IMG/VR virus record: IMGVR_UViG_2778261461_000002
Location: 1 to 45,970 of that record
Reading direction: 5' to 3' (one strand)
DNA: 45,970 nucleotides
Source of the DNA: a virus
Lineage: Duplodnaviria; Heunggongvirae; Uroviricota; Caudoviricetes
Shown here: positions 7,524 to 26,434 of the stretch, piece after piece
Layout of the letters: each line of letters opens with the position of its first letter
Position numbering within the stretch: position 1 is the stretch's first letter
Translations under genes and position numbers: made by a program
The notes under the pieces: generated by a model
Databases searched by the model: none
What the model saw: the letters and a program-made list of their open reading frames with translations, nothing else
What the model was told of the DNA's origin: nothing

Positions 7524-10241
7524 TTATGTGAGGCGTTGAGTGGTGTTGAAATTGTTGGTCAGAGCGTTGGAGAGTTTGCCTTTTCCGCTGGCGACGTCGC
7601 TGACGGCCATGGAATATCCCTGCTGCGCCCCGCGCTTAACTGCTGCCTCCAGCATGGCAAGCTGCTGCTCTGTCGGGTCCCCGTTTACATGAATGACCGG
7701 GCTGTAATTGAACGCCCCACCACCACCGCCCATATCGCGGTTACTGATGACGCGACCGTTATCGCCGGGGATCATGTACTGGCTACCATTGCTGGCTTTG
7801 AAAATCTCAGGCTTGCCGCCTTCGCCCACACGGTACATGGAGCTGGCTGATACCGGGCCGCCGTTTTCGCGCCCGCCGCCATATGAGATGCTCGCAACGT
7901 TCGACAGCAATGACGCTCCAGCAGAGGCGATGGCTGCATAGTTCGCAAGTTTTTGCGCTGGAGTCAGCGCTGTCGGATCAGCCATGGCCTGCATGATTGC
8001 GGTATTCAGGCTGAGGGTAGACTGGGCAATCGCAAACGCTTTACTGGCTGCGAACATGACCTGGTACGCCGCGTTACTCTTGCCAGCGGAGTCAGCAATT
8101 ATCGAAGCCAGACTATCAAAACCCTGGGACGCAGAGCCCAGAATAGAAAGAACGGATGCTCTTTGCTGATCTGCCTCAGTCTGCGCTATTTGCATGCGTG
8201 CGTTTGACGCCTGCAGTTGGATGACAGTTTTGGCGTCTTCGTAAAGCTGGGTATTTTGCTTATCCAGTTCCTGATATTTAGCTATGGCCTCAAGCTTTTG
8301 TGTTTCCTGGAGATTGATTTGCGCCAGCGGATCCACTGATGCCCCAGTGATAGGGTTGACCGAGGTATTTCCGGCAGCTATCTCCTGTTTGGCATACTTC
8401 TGTCCCTGCTCAGCCTCTTTGCGTTTCTGAATAGAGATTGCAGCCTGTTCGTTTGCCTCCCCAAGCGCCCTCGCTTCCGACAGTTGCTGCTGGGTAGCCG
8501 CACTGCCGAGAGACTGCTCCGCACGAAGTCCCGCCTCCTGGATGCGGCGTTTTTCAACCGACTCGGTGGTCAGGTCTGATTGCTGCCTCAAATTATCAAG
8601 CTTTTGCGCCACCGTTTCTTGCTGATTGGCTAACTTCTTAGCTTCTGACGCAGCGCTACTGGCTCCCTTCTTGCTGTTAGCGTTAGCCTCATCCTGTTTA
8701 TAGGTTGCCAACTTGACGTTGTAGTATTTCCTGAATGCTTCCGTCCCCTCTTTCAGCCCCTGCGTTTCGGCATCTCGCCACGCCTTGGCTTTCATTTGAG
8801 CCTCGCCAGTTTGCCGCGCAATAAACAGCTCCTGCTGAGCGATTTTTAGCGCCTTATCCTGGCTGGAAGTCAGGCTATCAGTCATCTCTTTCAACGCTTT
8901 TAGGCGTGAAGTTGCATCAGTACTTGTCTCCATGATGGTTAAGAGACTTTTGGCATATTCCCTGGCTTTAGCCGCGCCAGAAGATTGCCCACTCCCAACA
9001 TCCTGCAGAGTTACAACCAATGACTTAAGTTTTTCGTCGGTTGGTGTTTTCGCAATGTCAGAGAGTTGCTTAGCAAACTCAAAGGCTTTCTGATCGCTAA
9101 TATCGAATTTGGTAGACAGGGCCGCAACAGTTGCCACCATAGAGTTCATCGTTGACTGACCATCCTGCCCGCTGGCAGCTGCCTGCTTCCATGCCTCACT
9201 GAAATCGTTAGTGGTTATATTTAGCGTGGACAAATAGTCATTAAATAATTTTACGCTGGCATATCCACCGCCAAGCGAAGACATCAATGAATCACCAAAG
9301 CTAATGAAGTCACTCGATGCCTTTTGTACTTCTTTTGAGACGTTTGATAGAGCGGCCTGCAATTCAAGCTCGGCCTGCTTTTTCATCAAGGTTGCTACAG
9401 CAATATTTGTCTGTGCCAGAGCGGCATATTTATCAGAGAGGGCAGCTACGCCATTTTGTGAAACTGTAATAACTTTATCCGTGGTTTCAATTGCGTCCTT
9501 AAGCGCCTCCATGGCGTTTTTACCGCCATTCAGAGACGTAATTAAAGCGCCAGCGATGACGGAGCTAATCGCAATCACCGATCCAAGTACCGCCCCACCT
9601 GGTCCGAACGCTCCCGCCAATTGCGAGCCCTGCTGAGAGAATGCAACTAGCGCAGATTGCCCACCCTGCACCTGAATGATGAAGTCCTGAACTTGGTATC
9701 CAGCCTGCTGCATACTGTTTTTCCAGTTGCCATGGCCTTTTGTGCCAGTATCACTGGCAGCCTTCATATCAAACAGGCGACCGGTTAGTTCACCGATTTT
9801 TTGCTTTTCTTCATCAGATGCTTTAGAACCAGCGCGAAGTTGAGCGGCAAGGATAGCGGCGCTACGTGCGCCGTTCTCCTGCGCCTCATCCAGTATCGCT
9901 AACTGGTTGCCAAGCCCCTCAATAATGGCCTCTGCCCGGCTAAACTCAGATCCCGCGCCACTGGTATTATTCTTGGCTTCCAGCATAGCCTTGGCGATTG
10001 CTGTTACGCTTGTGTTCAGGGTTTTGAGAGAGCTGTCCATCGAGCGGGAGTAGGCCGCCATGGCATCGATGGATTTACCGGTTTGCAGGGTGTTTTGGTC
10101 GAGGCTATCCAGAGTTTTGCTGGTTCCCTGGATCGTCCCTTCCATCATTTTCAGTGCAGCTACTACTTCTTTTGCCCCGTCCAGCATGGGCTGAACATCA
10201 GCATCAATCTGGATCTCTACTCCACCAACCTGTTCAGTCAT
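7524..10241 (-). CDS. tail tape measure protein
   Basis: 905 aa, long Ala/Gln/Glu/Lys-rich coiled-coil-like central region, Gly-rich C-terminus; position upstream of distal tail genes. Confidence 0.85.
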   Translation of the reverse strand: MTEQVGGVEIQIDADVQPMLDGAKEVVAALKMMEGTIQGTSKTLDSLDQNTLQTGKSIDAMAAYSRSMDSSLKTLNTSVTAIAKAMLEAKNNTSGAGSEFSRAEAIIEGLGNQLAILDEAQENGARSAAILAAQLRAGSKASDEEKQKIGELTGRLFDMKAASDTGTKGHGNWKNSMQQAGYQVQDFIIQVQGGQSALVAFSQQGSQLAGAFGPGGAVLGSVIAISSVIAGALITSLNGGKNAMEALKDAIETTDKVITVSQNGVAALSDKYAALAQTNIAVATLMKKQAELELQAALSNVSKEVQKASSDFISFGDSLMSSLGGGYASVKLFNDYLSTLNITTNDFSEAWKQAAASGQDGQSTMNSMVATVAALSTKFDISDQKAFEFAKQLSDIAKTPTDEKLKSLVVTLQDVGSGQSSGAAKAREYAKSLLTIMETSTDATSRLKALKEMTDSLTSSQDKALKIAQQELFIARQTGEAQMKAKAWRDAETQGLKEGTEAFRKYYNVKLATYKQDEANANSKKGASSAASEAKKLANQQETVAQKLDNLRQQSDLTTESVEKRRIQEAGLRAEQSLGSAATQQQLSEARALGEANEQAAISIQKRKEAEQGQKYAKQEIAAGNTSVNPITGASVDPLAQINLQETQKLEAIAKYQELDKQNTQLYEDAKTVIQLQASNARMQIAQTEADQQRASVLSILGSASQGFDSLASIIADSAGKSNAAYQVMFAASKAFAIAQSTLSLNTAIMQAMADPTALTPAQKLANYAAIASAGASLLSNVASISYGGGRENGGPVSASSMYRVGEGGKPEIFKASNGSQYMIPGDNGRVISNRDMGGGGGAFNYSPVIHVNGDPTEQQLAMLEAAVKRGAQQGYSMAVSDVASGKGKLSNALTNNFNTTQRLT

Positions 10242-10255
10242 TACTATTCTCCGGG

Positions 10256-10288
10256 CAATAAAAAACCCACCGATGGTGGGTTTTTATA
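10256..10288. terminator. bidirectional rho-independent terminator
   Basis: a-run, hairpin cccacc-gatg-gtgggt, t-run; sits between lipoprotein gene stop (10296) and tape measure start (10241). Confidence 0.6.
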
Positions 10289-10295
10289 AAATCAT

Positions 10296-10769
10296 TTACC
10301 GACACAACCTTGACTCAATTTCCAGTTGCTTATCCAGCATTTTCAACAAACTGCGCGTACTATCGCTCTTATCAGTTAAGAGAACTGGTTCTTTAGATTT
10401 CTTAATAAAAACATGCTTGCTATCACCATCGGTATATACGAATCTACCGCCTATTCTACTTATGTCAGTATGCCCAGAAACTATCCCACAGACAGTATTG
10501 AATTTCTCATGTTGGAAAACTTTTACATCAGTAAATTCAAGCCCTAACGATGGGTTAAAGTTTGTATCACAGTTAATAACAGCGGACCCCTTTTTGGCGT
10601 AACCGCTGCTTTCAAGAATTTTCCACCTGTCACAATCGCCCGGCTTATATTTCTGCATAAGCTCGTTCTTGACGGCTTCTTTCGCCTCATCAATGATCTG
10701 CGCATCAGTTTTTTTATCGCATCCGAATAACAAAACGCAGCAACCGGCAGTTAATAATGCCTTTCTCAT
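10296..10769 (-). CDS. lipoprotein (157 aa from internal Met; ORF track extends to 10853)
   Basis: MRKALLTAGCCVLLFGC: signal peptide with lipobox-like LFGC; AT-rich gene; start 10769 verified as ATG. Confidence 0.6.
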   Translation of the reverse strand: MRKALLTAGCCVLLFGCDKKTDAQIIDEAKEAVKNELMQKYKPGDCDRWKILESSGYAKKGSAVINCDTNFNPSLGLEFTDVKVFQHEKFNTVCGIVSGHTDISRIGGRFVYTDGDSKHVFIKKSKEPVLLTDKSDSTRSLLKMLDKQLEIESRLCR

Positions 10770-10879
10770 ATCCCTATCCCCTTGGTAAAAGTGGAAACAT
10801 CCTACCCAGGAATAGCACAGGCGCAACGGCAAACGCTGATTTATTGATCTCAAGAGGCTAGCGCCGGAAAAACCCGCAG

Positions 10880-11458
10880 TTAGGCAGGGTCGTGATCCGG
10901 TAGATTAATGGCGCTATTTTCGAACAGCCTGATCAGGTCGGTGGATGAAATCTCTATGCGTTGACCGACAAAATTTGCCCTCGCCATAACAAATTTGGCT
11001 ACCAAGGTGATGAAGTCATAATGCATTTCGATCATGAGCTGAACGTCGCAAATAACAGGCTGAAACTCTTCATCCCACTCTCCCTTTGTGTCGAGGCAGT
11101 TGTAGTAAAAGAAGTAGATTTCTTCAGCTTTCCAGAAATCAGAATAAGCACCGCCGCCACGCTTCATATCACGCATTATGGATTCGTGATCAAAGTCTTT
11201 TCCGTCAAAGTGCTCTGCATATACGCCACTGTAGAGAATTTTTACCCTGCCTCTTGCGTAATCTCGGACATCCTCAATGCTGCTTAAATCGACTTTGTGA
11301 CTTGTTTCTGAATAACCCATGTGATCTTTAGCATGAGACGGCACTCTCAAGCCTATACCTCTTGGGTTCCAGCCTAATTTAAACGCCGCAAGCCAGTGAC
11401 CGGCTTCATGTTTAGCTATATGACCTGCCGCTGTCACGAAATCATATTCGTTAATCAT
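10880..11458 (-). CDS. standalone FtsH-like (peptidase M41) Zn-metallopeptidase domain protein
   Basis: 192 aa; HEAGHWLAA near N-terminus plus ILYSGVYAEH and GGGAYSDFWKAEEI resembling FtsH blocks YHEAGHA, LYGGRLAEEI and TGASNDIKVAT; no AAA+ or TM segments. Confidence 0.55.
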   Translation of the reverse strand: MINEYDFVTAAGHIAKHEAGHWLAAFKLGWNPRGIGLRVPSHAKDHMGYSETSHKVDLSSIEDVRDYARGRVKILYSGVYAEHFDGKDFDHESIMRDMKRGGGAYSDFWKAEEIYFFYYNCLDTKGEWDEEFQPVICDVQLMIEMHYDFITLVAKFVMARANFVGQRIEISSTDLIRLFENSAINLPDHDPA

Positions 11459-11745
11459 TTTCGCATCCTATTGAAAGGTATGCGCATATGATAATTCACT
11501 CCGAGATGGAATTGATCGAGTTGATTTCATTAACAAAAATCAATCTACTAAAACCTATTCGAGTAGAAATTTTTTCCTCTAGCATTGAATTATCAAGAAA
11601 AACATCATTACACTCTATGGTCTCTTCTCTCGGCGCTTCGCTTGGGAATGGTATCAAATTGTTAATGGTTAATGTTTGCTTAGGTTTCACCGCCCTCTCC
11701 CCGAGATAAGAGATCTAAAGCCCACCTGAGTGGGCCTTGCCACCT

Positions 11746-24368: not shown

Positions 24369-25007
24369 TTAAGCCAGTTTCAGCATGCACGTTCCGCATG
24401 ATCTGGCGATATCGATGTGAGCCACTTCCGCTGGCGCATTGGCCGCGTCCACCAGATCCTGCACTTCTTTGCTGGCACCGTAACGGCGTACGATACCAAC
24501 GAACTCTTCGACGTCGTGGCCACGCAGTGTAAGCACTGGCTGCCCGGTCTCTTTGTTGAACTTTGGCGCGCCGAAATCATCGGTGGCCTGAGAGATGTGG
24601 TAAAGCTCATGCTCCACCAGCGCGCAAAACTCAAGGTCACTGCATTGGGAGCAATAATCGGCAGCCAGCGTGATGATGTACTTCGGGACGCGCCCAAACC
24701 ATTCATGCATCTGCTGTTCCATCCGGGCTTTCTGCCACCCGCCAGCACGCAGCATCACCTGCTCAGCCTGACCGAGCACATAGCGTCCCTTCTTTGCGAA
24801 CGAATCTGATGCCCACATGAAGCAGAGATCCGCATCAATCAGGTGGGCATGGTCTGGATTGTGGATGTTGCCGGTATCGCTGAGGATTTGGCGATTTACC
24901 CACTCGTTCACTTCGGTAGCGGGGATAAGTCTGGTATAGGGATGCCAGTTCTCCGCGCTAATGAAGTTAACCGGTGGGTATGGCCTGCGCTCGTCATCGA
25001 TCGGCAT
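24369..25007 (-). CDS. HExxH zinc metallopeptidase-like protein (SprT-like motif HELYH)
   Basis: 212 aa; ALVEHELYHI motif; backbone-like GC composition. Confidence 0.45.
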   Translation of the reverse strand: MPIDDERRPYPPVNFISAENWHPYTRLIPATEVNEWVNRQILSDTGNIHNPDHAHLIDADLCFMWASDSFAKKGRYVLGQAEQVMLRAGGWQKARMEQQMHEWFGRVPKYIITLAADYCSQCSDLEFCALVEHELYHISQATDDFGAPKFNKETGQPVLTLRGHDVEEFVGIVRRYGASKEVQDLVDAANAPAEVAHIDIARSCGTCMLKLA

Positions 25008-25073: not shown

Positions 25074-25108
25074 ATAAAAAAAGCCCCGCAATGCGAGGCC
25101 TTTTTGAA
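25074..25108. terminator. bidirectional rho-independent terminator
   Basis: a7, hairpin gccccgc-aat-gcgaggc (one G-U), then ctttttg; directly downstream of serine protease gene. Confidence 0.6.
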
Positions 25109-25131
25109 TGATGATTATAATGAAGATAATA

Positions 25132-25866
25132 TTATTCAGCTTTGAGCGTAGCAATTGCATCAATAATGGGCTGTATAGGGAAACCGATACCTATGCCAGG
25201 ATTTGCATTAGACTCCAGAATTTTGACTATTGTAGCCAGTGACTCTGCATAAAGTGAGTTAACCCTCGCGAAATCCACACCACCGAAGCTTACATTCACT
25301 TGCATGTTCCCAATTTCTATCAAAAGTCTTTTGGATCTTTCAGCAATAGCATCAGCCTCAACTTTTCCCGGGTATCTTCTTTCGGTGACGATACCAACCA
25401 CATCCCCTGACTCTAATTCAATAATGGGGCCTCCGGAATTGCCACCGTTTACCATTCCATCGATAGCAAACTTGCCGTCCTCCATTGGGGCTGAAATTAT
25501 GGCTTCACTTGTTAACAAATCAGATAAACCATGCGGATAGCCTGCAAAAATCAAACGCTTTCCCCTTGTTGGGGTGAAGTTGGGTGAAGGCTGCAAAACA
25601 ACCCTTCCCGCTGGCAGTGCTTCTGAAAGTTGCATGACCGCAATGTCGTTTTCGATGTCAACACGTTGAATCTGAGCTTGTAAGCTCTGATGAGATTCAG
25701 TGAGCAAAGTGACTGGACCGCGAGTGCTGCTAGTTGCTATATCAACCAATGATTTTATTACATGCCAATTTGTAATAACTAAATCATCCCTCAGGAAACT
25801 AAAACCACTGCCGCGAGACTGCCCTGCAATGACTTGAAAAGTTGCGTTGGCTAAAGTTTGATGCAT
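25132..25866 (-). CDS. trypsin-like (S1/Trypsin_2-type) serine protease, no signal peptide
   Basis: 244 aa; catalytic triad contexts TNWHV (His), ENDIAV (Asp), GNSGGP (Ser); AT-rich gene. Confidence 0.75.
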   Translation of the reverse strand: MHQTLANATFQVIAGQSRGSGFSFLRDDLVITNWHVIKSLVDIATSSTRGPVTLLTESHQSLQAQIQRVDIENDIAVMQLSEALPAGRVVLQPSPNFTPTRGKRLIFAGYPHGLSDLLTSEAIISAPMEDGKFAIDGMVNGGNSGGPIIELESGDVVGIVTERRYPGKVEADAIAERSKRLLIEIGNMQVNVSFGGVDFARVNSLYAESLATIVKILESNANPGIGIGFPIQPIIDAIATLKAE

Positions 25867-25978
25867 CGACTTTCTCCGATACCGGTGAGTGAAAAATCAT
25901 AATGAATTCATCCACCAGAATAATTGATGAGACACATCAATTCACACGCAAAATATTCACTGCATCAATCGGTTCGTC

Positions 25979-26158
25979 TTATTTTTGAACTGAGCGCAAT
26001 TTCAGCACCAATGCACATGAGTCATTGGTAGTTTCGCTTTTGACAACCACCAGCTCAAGAACCTCACCTTCTTGCGGGATTTCATTTTCCACAAAGAGGT
26101 TTTTAACTTCGTAAATTGAGTTAGTAACCGAGATAAACCCACGGTCTTCTTTTTTCAT
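25979..26158 (-). CDS. small acidic protein (59 aa), missed by ORF track
   Basis: ATG at 26158 preceded by GAGGTG Shine-Dalgarno at proper spacing; translation MKKEDRGFISVTNSIYEVKNLFVENEIPQEGEVLELVVVKSETTNDSCALVLKLRSVQK; 110 nt upstream of protease gene. Confidence 0.45.
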   Translation of the reverse strand: MKKEDRGFISVTNSIYEVKNLFVENEIPQEGEVLELVVVKSETTNDSCALVLKLRSVQK

Positions 26159-26200
26159 GTGAAAGCACCTCGCTTTATTGTTTATGTTTCACTCAGGCCG

Positions 26201-26434
26201 CTATTGCGAGACCCGGTATTTATTCTTCTGGCAGTTCGCCTGCCACGCCCTGTTGTGCGCCAGCACATCTTTCTTCGTCTGCCGATCCATCACTTCGATG
26301 TCTTGCTCAGTGAGGCGAATAGCGCTTACCCAGTCGCAGCTGGTGTCGATAATTTCAACCTTTGCGGGTCCAGTTTGCGCGCAGCTCACGATCGACATCA
26401 TCATCAGGCATATGGCTAACCGTCTGGTGAACAT
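26201..26434 (-). CDS. o-spanin-like lipoprotein (Rz1-position)
   Basis: 77 aa; N-terminal signal peptide ending IVSC (lipobox-like); partially overlaps Rz-like gene in another frame. Confidence 0.4.
   Translation of the reverse strand: MFTRRLAICLMMMSIVSCAQTGPAKVEIIDTSCDWVSAIRLTEQDIEVMDRQTKKDVLAHNRAWQANCQKNKYRVSQ

What the first reader, a model, noticed from the sequence alone, without database searches (positions are those of the whole stretch)
25074..26200. Self-contained moron: cytoplasmic trypsin-like serine protease with a small acidic upstream partner
Between the lysis cassette and the terminase module lies an AT-rich two-gene cassette with its own Shine-Dalgarno sites and a strong bidirectional terminator. 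The 59-aa acidic ORF is absent from the ORF track. The 244-aa protein has an intact His/Asp/Ser triad in trypsin-fold order (TNWHV, ENDIAV, GNSGGP) and no signal peptide, so it would act in the cytoplasm; its roughly 80-aa C-terminal extension is unassigned. A cytoplasmic protease kept with a small acidic protein looks like a toxin/inhibitor or sensor/effector pair and is a candidate abortive-infection or lysogenic-conversion module.
Basis: partly seen in the sequence, partly recalled or inferred. Interest (0 to 1): 0.7.

Follow-up and report, generated by a model that had tools for sequence, protein, structure and literature searches.

The report
Prophage moron: mini-HtrA protease plus partner
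An E. coli prophage carries, between its lysis and DNA-packaging genes, a mobile low-GC two-gene insert encoding an uncharacterised cytoplasmic HtrA-like serine protease and a tiny orphan protein; it is a plausible but unproven phage-conflict module.

Summary
On the minus strand lie a 59-aa ORF (26158..25979) and a 244-aa S1 protease (25866..25132). Each has a Shine-Dalgarno site. A strong sense-strand terminator follows, and GC is the lowest in the window (0.42 against 0.53).

Three details need correction:
- The small ORF is already annotated in RefSeq.
- The terminator is strong on one strand only.
- The "80-aa C-terminal extension" is a ~55-aa two-helix insertion inside the second beta-barrel of a PDZ-less HtrA/DegP-type fold.

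The cassette is a mobile moron. It sits at the lysis-to-terminase junction in at least 8 upstream and 12 downstream backbone classes. Related prophages carry other cargo in that slot.

The small protein is a genuine orphan gene under purifying selection. It is not an obligate partner:
- More distant proteases occupy the same slot without it.
- Small-protein and protease alleles reassort freely.
- The protease belongs to a wider stand-alone ~243-aa family, found in prophage late regions and in chromosomal variable islands near TIR or AbiJ genes.

No known defence family, RNA family or paper covers it, and no sigma-70 promoter was found.

My best reading, at low-to-moderate confidence, is a latent cytoplasmic protease that acts as a prophage conflict effector, with the small protein as an accessory regulator. 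Function remains untested.

The parts
26201..26278 (-). 3' end of the o-spanin-like lipoprotein ORF (full ORF 26434..26201). It forms the conserved left boundary of the cassette.
   Evidence: About 80-100 nt of this spanin 3' end travel with the cassette as a non-coding remnant in lambda-like (L002) and P22-like (L003) prophages that have their own different spanins. The ORF has a lipobox and a weak P2_Rz1 match.
26168..26171 (-). Shine-Dalgarno GAGG of the small ORF
   Evidence: Read from the sequence. Conserved in the alignment of 23 loci.
25979..26158 (-). 59-aa orphan protein (RefSeq WP_086530035.1)
25867..25978 (-). Conserved 112-nt spacer between the two genes
   Evidence: The length is exactly 112 nt in 18 of 20 IMG/VR loci. 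Mean column identity is 88%. Evidence for RNA structure is weak: RNAalifold -6 kcal, single-sequence z -1.8, no compensatory pairs in the main hairpin. No Rfam match.
25922..25942 (-). Palindrome AATTGATG-N5-CATCAATT inside the spacer, a possible hairpin or operator
   Evidence: 95.5% of cells are paired. All 10 one-sided changes keep pairing through G-U, but there are no double changes.
25874..25877 (-). Shine-Dalgarno GGAG of the protease
   Evidence: Read from the sequence. Conserved.
25132..25866 (-). 244-aa cytoplasmic PDZ-less HtrA/DegP-type (S1C) serine protease (WP_086530036.1). Catalytic codons: H35 at 25764..25762, D74 at 25647..25645, S144 at 25437..25435.
   Evidence: Pfam Trypsin_2 6e-18. 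The profile hits HtrA/Deg structures at 1e-15, with the triad aligned. Foldseek finds HtrA1, MucD and DegS at 1e-12. AF2 pLDDT 87.6. The triad is invariant in 46 sequences.
25201..25374 (-). Family-specific two-helix insertion (residues ~165-222) between the last two strands of barrel 2, next to the active site
   Evidence: AF2 secondary structure and the alignment with HtrA 'GIGF' strand logic. Not covered by any PDB match. With residues 35-100 it is the most variable region, with a pN/pS ratio of 0.52 against 0.17-0.22 in the core.
25076..25105 (-). Intrinsic terminator after the protease
   Evidence: -17.9 kcal/mol, z -5.6, U7 tail on the sense strand; weak on the plus strand. A hairpin plus U-tract follows the protease in 20 of 28 loci, with at least 6 unrelated hairpin sequences.

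Best explanation
The feature is a mobile moron of lambdoid prophages, inserted at the junction between the lysis cassette and the packaging genes.

Its core is a single self-sufficient gene: a cytoplasmic, PDZ-less HtrA/DegP-type serine protease of a stand-alone ~243-aa family. That family is defined by a two-helix insertion beside the catalytic cleft.

I infer that the protease is a latent conflict (anti-phage or exclusion) effector. It would be made in the cell carrying the prophage and kept inactive or narrowly specific by the variable insertion and the N-barrel loops. On a phage-derived cue it would cut a host or invader protein, in the manner of single-gene protease Abi systems such as Lit.

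The 59-aa beta-hairpin protein is a lineage-specific add-on found in Enterobacteriaceae. The most likely role is a regulator that engages a conserved part of the protease (the cleft or the N-terminal segment), for example a pseudosubstrate inhibitor. Because it lies in line with the Q-dependent late operon directly after the spanins, it could be made in bulk during the resident phage's own lytic growth. That would shield the phage from its own protease, a Tai/Ati-like self-immunity logic.

Shown: gene reality, fold, intact triad, absence of an export signal, mobility, hot-spot location, allele shuffling, terminator.

Inferred: catalytic activity in vivo, the defence role, the inhibitor role of the small protein, and the timing of expression.
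For: Moron and hot spot:
- GC is the lowest in the window.
- The same cassette sits in lambda-like, P22-like and other backbones, always between lysis and terminase. Flanks fall into at least 8 upstream and 12 downstream classes.
- Prophages with the same lysis or packaging genes carry other cargo there.
- A terminator follows the protease in most alleles even though the hairpin sequences are unrelated.

Protease as the core unit:
- Relatives at 45-49% identity occupy the same slot without the small ORF.
- One relative lies between Q and the holin in a Pseudomonas prophage.
- 385 clusters, with the top 120 all stand-alone at 241-279 aa.
- No conserved neighbour in chromosomal copies.

Conflict flavour:
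- The best PADLOC matches are protease domains of retron XI, Avs1b, PDC-M35A and LmuA.
- Chromosomal relatives lie beside TIR_2, AbiJ_NTD4 and a mad8/SspH-like ATPase.
- Substitutions concentrate in surface regions 35-100 and 165-222.
- The slot upstream of the packaging module is a documented home of prophage immunity genes with a small late-operon counter-gene (Tai/Ati; PMC11364771).

Small protein as a generic regulator:
- It is under purifying selection.
- The pairing is kept at ~40% identity.
- One small-protein class works with four protease classes, so any contact must be with conserved protease surfaces.
- Its N-terminus is poorly ordered when modelled alone.
Against: - There is no experimental or homology link to any validated defence system. 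The PADLOC hits cover only the generic catalytic core.
- No sigma-70 promoter was found upstream of either gene. Both genes are co-oriented with the late operon, so expression in the lysogen is unproven.
- Protease-only loci show that the small protein is dispensable.
- Small-ORF-only loci exist.
- No complex model could be computed.
- The family is absent from 50,697 sequenced phages. That makes it rare and says nothing about function.
- The defence genes seen near chromosomal relatives come from only a handful of loci.
Confidence: 0.35

Rival explanations
1. Late-gene function for the phage itself. The protease would be transcribed with the lysis genes from the Q-dependent late promoter. It would act at the end of the lytic cycle, either in the cytoplasm (counter-defence, or degrading host or competitor proteins) or outside the cell after release by lysis, which needs no signal peptide. 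Outside the cell it could clear receptors on debris or act on the environment or the host tissue.
For: - It is co-oriented with the late operon and abuts it. No consensus promoter was found.
- It always flanks the lysis cassette: after the spanins in Enterobacterales, and between Q and the holin in a Pseudomonas prophage.
- Q-modified polymerase would read through the terminator.
- From general knowledge, HtrA-family enzymes can work extracellularly.
Against: - Chromosomal relatives without any lysis genes also lack signal peptides.
- A terminator right after the gene is conserved in form across unrelated sequences. That fits a separate transcription unit.
- The gene is optional: related prophages lack it.
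- It is absent from 50,697 isolated phages.
Confidence: 0.2
2. Classical toxin-antitoxin pair. The protease would be a constitutively toxic enzyme, and the small acidic protein its obligate, labile antitoxin. Loss of the antitoxin would kill the cell (addiction or abortive infection).
For: - The small gene lies upstream of the larger enzyme gene, and the spacing is fixed.
- The small protein is partly disordered when modelled alone.
- Palindromes lie near the genes.
Against: - The protease occurs without the small gene in several prophage lineages and in all chromosomal relatives examined.
- Alleles reassort with no co-variation.
- The palindromes lie between the genes, not in an upstream operator.
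- No TA family matches.
Confidence: 0.12
3. Pepco-like logic. The small protein would be the latent effector. The protease would trim it (for example its conserved C-terminal tail), releasing an oligomeric beta-barrel that damages the membrane.
For: - Precedent: a small beta-rich protein encoded immediately upstream of a trypsin-like protease and activated by C-terminal cleavage (bioRxiv 10.1101/2025.11.14.688446).
- The small protein is predicted to form a long beta-hairpin with a conserved tail.
- Compatibility with many protease alleles fits recognition by the conserved active site.
Against: - It is half the size of Pepco, has no amphipathic helix, has low hydrophobicity and matches no family.
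- The protease has no fused sensor.
- Protease-only loci would be functionless under this model.
Confidence: 0.1
4. Decaying or functionless cargo that is merely hitch-hiking in a recombination hot spot.
For: - Some copies are damaged: L012 has a frameshifted small ORF and a truncated protease, and L019, L034 and L036 are partial.
- It is present in only about 0.4% of complete E. coli genomes.
Against: - Both genes are under purifying selection. The triad is invariant across 46 sequences at 38-75% identity. Spacing and translation signals are conserved.
Confidence: 0.03

Closest known systems
HtrA/DegP/DegS family (MEROPS S1C) proteases
   Same: Two-barrel chymotrypsin fold, His-Asp-Ser order, a GNSGGP serine motif and a 'GIGF' last strand. 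They are the best sequence and fold matches.
   Different: No PDZ domain, no signal peptide or membrane anchor, only 244 aa, and a ~55-aa helical insertion in the loop before the last strand that no solved structure shares.
Protease domains of defence systems (retron type XI RT-protease, Avs1/Avs2 trypsin-like N-domains, Lamassu LmuA-protease, PADLOC candidate PDC-M35A)
   Same: They are the best PADLOC matches to the catalytic core, from 5e-14 down to 1e-3. They are cytoplasmic trypsin-like effectors in conflict systems (PMC7736814; bioRxiv 2025.11.14.688446).
   Different: No reverse transcriptase, STAND NTPase, SMC-like partner or MBL/Pepco/EACC1 effector is present. The similarity stops at residue ~165, before the insertion. 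None of the matches is a whole-system match.
Pepco-protease modules
   Same: A small beta-rich protein is encoded immediately upstream of a trypsin-like protease.
   Different: No detectable homology, half the length, a sensor-less protease, and a partner that is dispensable in related loci.
Tai/Ati of phage phi80 and other prophage morons upstream of the packaging module
   Same: Same genomic slot, and the same two-gene immunity-plus-small-counter-gene logic tied to the Q late operon.
   Different: tblastn of the protease found nothing at E<=1e-8 in the 50,697-record phage collection. I did not check whether phi80 is in that collection, so the lack of homology to Tai is indirect. Tai is divergently transcribed, whereas both genes here are co-oriented. 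Tai is not described as a protease.
Lit (e14 prophage) abortive-infection protease
   Same: A single-gene, prophage-borne, latent cytoplasmic protease, as a working analogy (general knowledge; cited in PMC11364771).
   Different: Lit is a zinc metalloprotease with a known trigger and target. Nothing of the kind is known here.

Membership tests
S1C (HtrA/DegP) peptidases | Chymotrypsin-type double beta-barrel with a His-Asp-Ser triad in that order and a GNSGG serine motif | tested here: met
   H35, D74 and S144 are invariant and align with the HtrA catalytic residues.
S1C (HtrA/DegP) peptidases | At least one C-terminal PDZ domain | tested here: not met
   No PDZ in Pfam. The protein ends 14 residues after the last barrel strand.
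S1C (HtrA/DegP) peptidases | Extracytoplasmic location (signal peptide or membrane anchor) | tested here: not met
   There is no hydrophobic N-terminal segment. The highest 19-residue hydropathy is 1.24.
S1C (HtrA/DegP) peptidases | Trimeric assembly through N-terminal residues | not testable with these tools
   The N-terminal 34 residues are the most conserved part, but no multimer model could be run.
Phage moron (extra transcription unit between conserved genes) | Present in some and absent from other closely related phage genomes at the same position | tested here: met
   GN25 has the same lysis genes but different cargo. See also L019 and L038/L039.
Phage moron (extra transcription unit between conserved genes) | Base composition different from the flanks | tested here: met
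   GC 0.424 against 0.531. GC3 0.38-0.42 against 0.65-0.72.
Phage moron (extra transcription unit between conserved genes) | Own terminator | tested here: met
Phage moron (extra transcription unit between conserved genes) | Own promoter | tested here: inconclusive
   No site reaches 9 of 12 consensus matches upstream of either gene in the window, L002 or L028. A -10-like CATTAT/TATGTT hexamer lies ~30 nt before the protease start in divergent loci. That is my reading and has not been tested.
Type II toxin-antitoxin pair | Obligate co-occurrence of toxin and antitoxin genes | tested here: not met
   There are protease-only loci and small-ORF-only loci.
Type II toxin-antitoxin pair | Toxicity of the larger protein, neutralised by the smaller one | not testable with these tools
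   Needs expression experiments.
Pepco-protease defence module | The small partner belongs to the Pepco family | tested here: inconclusive
Pepco-protease defence module | Protease fused to a sensor domain (STAND, FGE and others) | tested here: not met
   The protein is 244 aa and stand-alone. The top 120 family members are 241-279 aa.
Retron type XI | Reverse transcriptase fused to the protease | tested here: not met
   The PADLOC match covers only positions 340-487 of the RT-protease model. No RT is in the cassette.
Tai/Ati prophage immunity | Homology to Tai proteins | tested here: inconclusive
   tblastn of the protease against 50,697 phage records found nothing at 1e-8. I did not verify that phi80 is among those records, and I did not compare directly with a Tai sequence.
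Tai/Ati prophage immunity | Location upstream of the packaging module in a moron locus | tested here: met

The most novel reading that the evidence does not exclude
A new minimal prophage immunity system with two parts. The first is a sensor-less 'mini-HtrA', whose helical insertion beside the active site is itself the phage-trigger sensor or gate. The second is a 59-aa anti-protease, delivered by the late operon, that protects the resident phage during its own lytic cycle. The conserved head (small gene, 112-nt spacer and the first ~34 codons) would serve as a recombination handle that lets prophages swap protease specificity alleles.
Probability: 0.15. Interest if true: 0.7.

Novelty: new variant of a known kind. 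Interest (0 to 1): 0.42.

Why it matters
If the protease proves to be a defence or exclusion effector, it would be one of the smallest protease-based immunity units known. It has no fused sensor, and its regulatory element is built into the catalytic domain.

It would also add the lysis-to-packaging junction of lambdoid prophages to the places worth mining for such genes.

The shuffling of diverged protease bodies behind a conserved small gene and spacer gives a concrete, testable case of modular allele exchange in prophage cargo.

If instead it turns out to be a late-acting phage enzyme, it would be an unusual lysis-associated protease. In either case the family (at least 385 clusters) has no assigned function at present.

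Tried and rejected
Searches and jobs that found nothing or could not run:
- megablast and tblastn against 50,697 phage genomes found no match.
- The scan of one genome per species for the small protein found no confirmed locus.
- The afdb50 fold library was unavailable.
- BFVD gave only generic trypsin-like hits.
- Rfam gave only terminator-like leader noise.
- Literature searches by accession numbers and by 'S1 family peptidase' plus prophage plus defence found nothing.
- The Brenes & Laub 2025 paper on prophage defence was not held.

Ideas I considered and dropped:
- A structured RNA in the 112-nt spacer. Thermodynamic and covariation support is weak.
- A cold-shock or S1-domain (OB) fold for the small protein, prompted by one UniRef name. 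No profile or fold search supports it.
- A conserved ~240-aa partner in non-phage loci. The neighbours are unrelated.
- sigma-E or sigma-32 style promoters in the spacer. I checked by eye only, and the spacing does not fit.

Full report
**What is there.** The window is a lambdoid prophage of E. coli strain E3, at 100% identity to NZ_CM130010.1. All genes in this part run on the minus strand.
- After two holins, a GH108 endolysin and overlapping i-/o-spanin-like ORFs come a 59-aa ORF (26158..25979), a 112-nt spacer and a 244-aa S1 peptidase (25866..25132).
- A hairpin with a U7 tail follows. Then come a PhageMetallopep gene, the DUF2280 small terminase and TerL.
- Each of the two genes has a Shine-Dalgarno site at good spacing.
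- The 1,127-nt stretch has GC 0.424 against 0.531 for the window, the lowest of 897 same-size windows apart from its own neighbours. GC3 is 0.38-0.42 against 0.65-0.72 in flanking genes.
- The terminator is strong on the sense strand (-17.9 kcal/mol, z -5.6) and weak on the other strand.
- RefSeq already annotates both genes.

**The protease.**
- Pfam Trypsin_2 scores 6e-18.
- A 46-sequence profile hits HtrA, Deg and MucD structures at about 1e-15, with H35, D74 and S144 aligned to the catalytic residues.
- The AlphaFold model (pLDDT 87.6) matches HtrA1, MucD and DegS at 1e-12.
- There is no PDZ domain, no signal peptide and no TM segment.
It lies between the last two strands of barrel 2.
- After the insertion come the invariant NAN-GIGIGF motif, which is the usual HtrA 'GIGF' strand, and a terminal helix. 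No solved structure covers the insertion.
- I could not measure triad geometry because the model coordinates are not exposed.

**The small protein.**
- It is a real gene: 66 clusters at 64-97% identity, all in Enterobacterales, with dN/dS of about 0.16-0.28.
- The model (pLDDT 76) shows a long beta-hairpin at 34-56 and a poorly defined N-terminus.
- Two of the most distant relatives, at about 40-46% identity, also sit directly upstream of a Trypsin_2 protease just before a terminase.

**Mobility and the slot.**
- The pair occurs in 22 of 5,426 complete E. coli genomes. It is found in lambda-like and P22-like prophages, always between lysis and packaging.
- It also occurs in 20 IMG/VR contigs. 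Across 21 loci the flanks fall into at least 8 upstream and 12 downstream classes.
- About 80-100 nt of the 3' end of the window's type of o-spanin gene travel with the cassette as a remnant in phages that have other spanins. This marks the left recombination boundary.
- Prophages with the same lysis or packaging genes carry unrelated small genes in the slot.
- A hairpin plus U-tract follows the protease in 20 of 28 loci, with at least six unrelated hairpin sequences.
- No sigma-70 consensus promoter was found in the window, L002 or L028.

**Is it an obligate pair? No.**
- Proteases 45-49% identical, from Enterobacter, Cronobacter and Pantoea prophages, lie in the same slot straight after the o-spanin, with no small ORF.
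- A 42%-identical copy lies between Q and the holin in a Pseudomonas prophage.
- Chromosomal copies have no conserved neighbour.
- The profile search finds 385 clusters, and the best 120 are all stand-alone at 241-279 aa. A few have a SEC-C tail.
- Conversely, the small ORF persists alone where the protease was replaced.
- Alleles are shuffled. Between the window and L007 the small gene has dS 0.03, while the protease has dS above 2.
- One small-protein class is joined to four protease classes, and distance matrices are uncorrelated: Mantel r 0.18, with 203 of 2,000 permutations as high.
- Any contact between the two proteins must therefore involve conserved protease surfaces.
- Variation in the protease concentrates in residues 35-100 and in the insertion, with a pN/pS ratio of about 0.5 against about 0.2 in the core.

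**The spacer.**
- It is exactly 112 nt in 18 of 20 loci, with 88% mean column identity.
- It contains AATTGATG-N5-CATCAATT and ATGAATTCAT palindromes.
- Support for RNA structure is weak, and Rfam has nothing.
- A -10-like hexamer lies about 30 nt before the protease start in divergent loci. That is my reading and is not a test.

**Function.**
- Nothing validated matches. The PADLOC hits (retron XI RT-protease 5e-14, Avs1b, PDC-M35A, LmuA) cover only the catalytic core.
- Circumstantial support for a conflict role:
  - the hot-spot position, which is documented for Tai/Ati immunity in phi80 (PMC11364771);
  - chromosomal relatives beside TIR_2, AbiJ_NTD4 and a mad8/SspH-like ATPase;
  - surface-focused variation and allele swapping.
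- I therefore favour, at about 0.35, a latent cytoplasmic protease that acts as a prophage conflict effector. The small protein would be an accessory regulator, possibly a late-operon self-immunity inhibitor.
- The main rival, at about 0.2, is a late phage function. This includes release by lysis, which removes the need for a signal peptide.
- A strict toxin-antitoxin pair (about 0.12) and a Pepco-like activated effector (about 0.1; bioRxiv 10.1101/2025.11.14.688446) are weakened by the protease-only loci.
- Junk is excluded by purifying selection.

**Novelty.**
- The family and the pair are uncharacterised in everything I could search.
- The ingredients are known kinds: a moron, an S1C protease and a small partner. 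The evidence for function is indirect.
- I rate it a new variant of a known kind, with moderate interest.

Noticed in passing
window 10200-11700: A second low-GC island (about 0.43) lies between the tape-measure gene and a KilA-N gene. It holds two minus-strand ORFs without Pfam hits. One is a 192-aa protein with an N-terminal HEAGH (HExxH) metalloprotease-like motif (11458..10880). The other is a 185-aa probable lipoprotein (10853..10296; weak PADLOC PDC-M24B 1e-3). It looks like another moron pair.
   Followed up: partly
window 26201-26434 (-): A 77-aa o-spanin-like lipoprotein ORF overlaps the i-spanin-like gene and is not annotated in the RefSeq record. Its last ~80-100 nt are carried along with the cassette as a dead remnant in L002 and L003.
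   Followed up: partly
window 25867-25978: The inter-gene spacer is more conserved than the protease gene and is fixed at 112 nt. It contains two palindromes. In the first, all observed changes keep G-U pairing, but none is compensatory. It may be a promoter or operator, or a processing hairpin. This is unresolved.
   Followed up: partly
window 24369-25007 (-): The gene directly after the cassette is a PF18894 'putative phage metallopeptidase' (3e-44) with an HELYH motif, but its PHROG (513) is labelled 'transposase'. A second predicted peptidase therefore sits beside the S1 protease. It has normal GC and is conserved with the terminase in other prophages.
   Followed up: partly
L019 4200-5900; L037 2600-3950: Prophages with the same spanin type carry different cargo in the same slot. 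L019 has a truncated small ORF, then a 181-aa Cys-rich protein and a 247-aa protein on the opposite strand. GN25 has three hypothetical genes.
   Followed up: no
L005 5001-5825; L041 7001-7819: Marine gammaproteobacterial members of the protease family (Agarivorans, Photobacterium) carry a C-terminal SEC-C zinc-binding motif. This is a possible targeting tag, and its meaning is unknown.
   Followed up: no
L002 9189-10184: In E. coli EC11 the prophage that carries the cassette also has an oppositely oriented 'SDH family Clp fold serine proteinase' gene between Q and the holin. That is another protease moron in the late region.
   Followed up: no
L012 4001-4700: This IMG/VR copy has an extra A in the A-run at the start of the small ORF and a protease truncated to 120 aa. 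It is either a decaying copy or a sequencing error.
   Followed up: no
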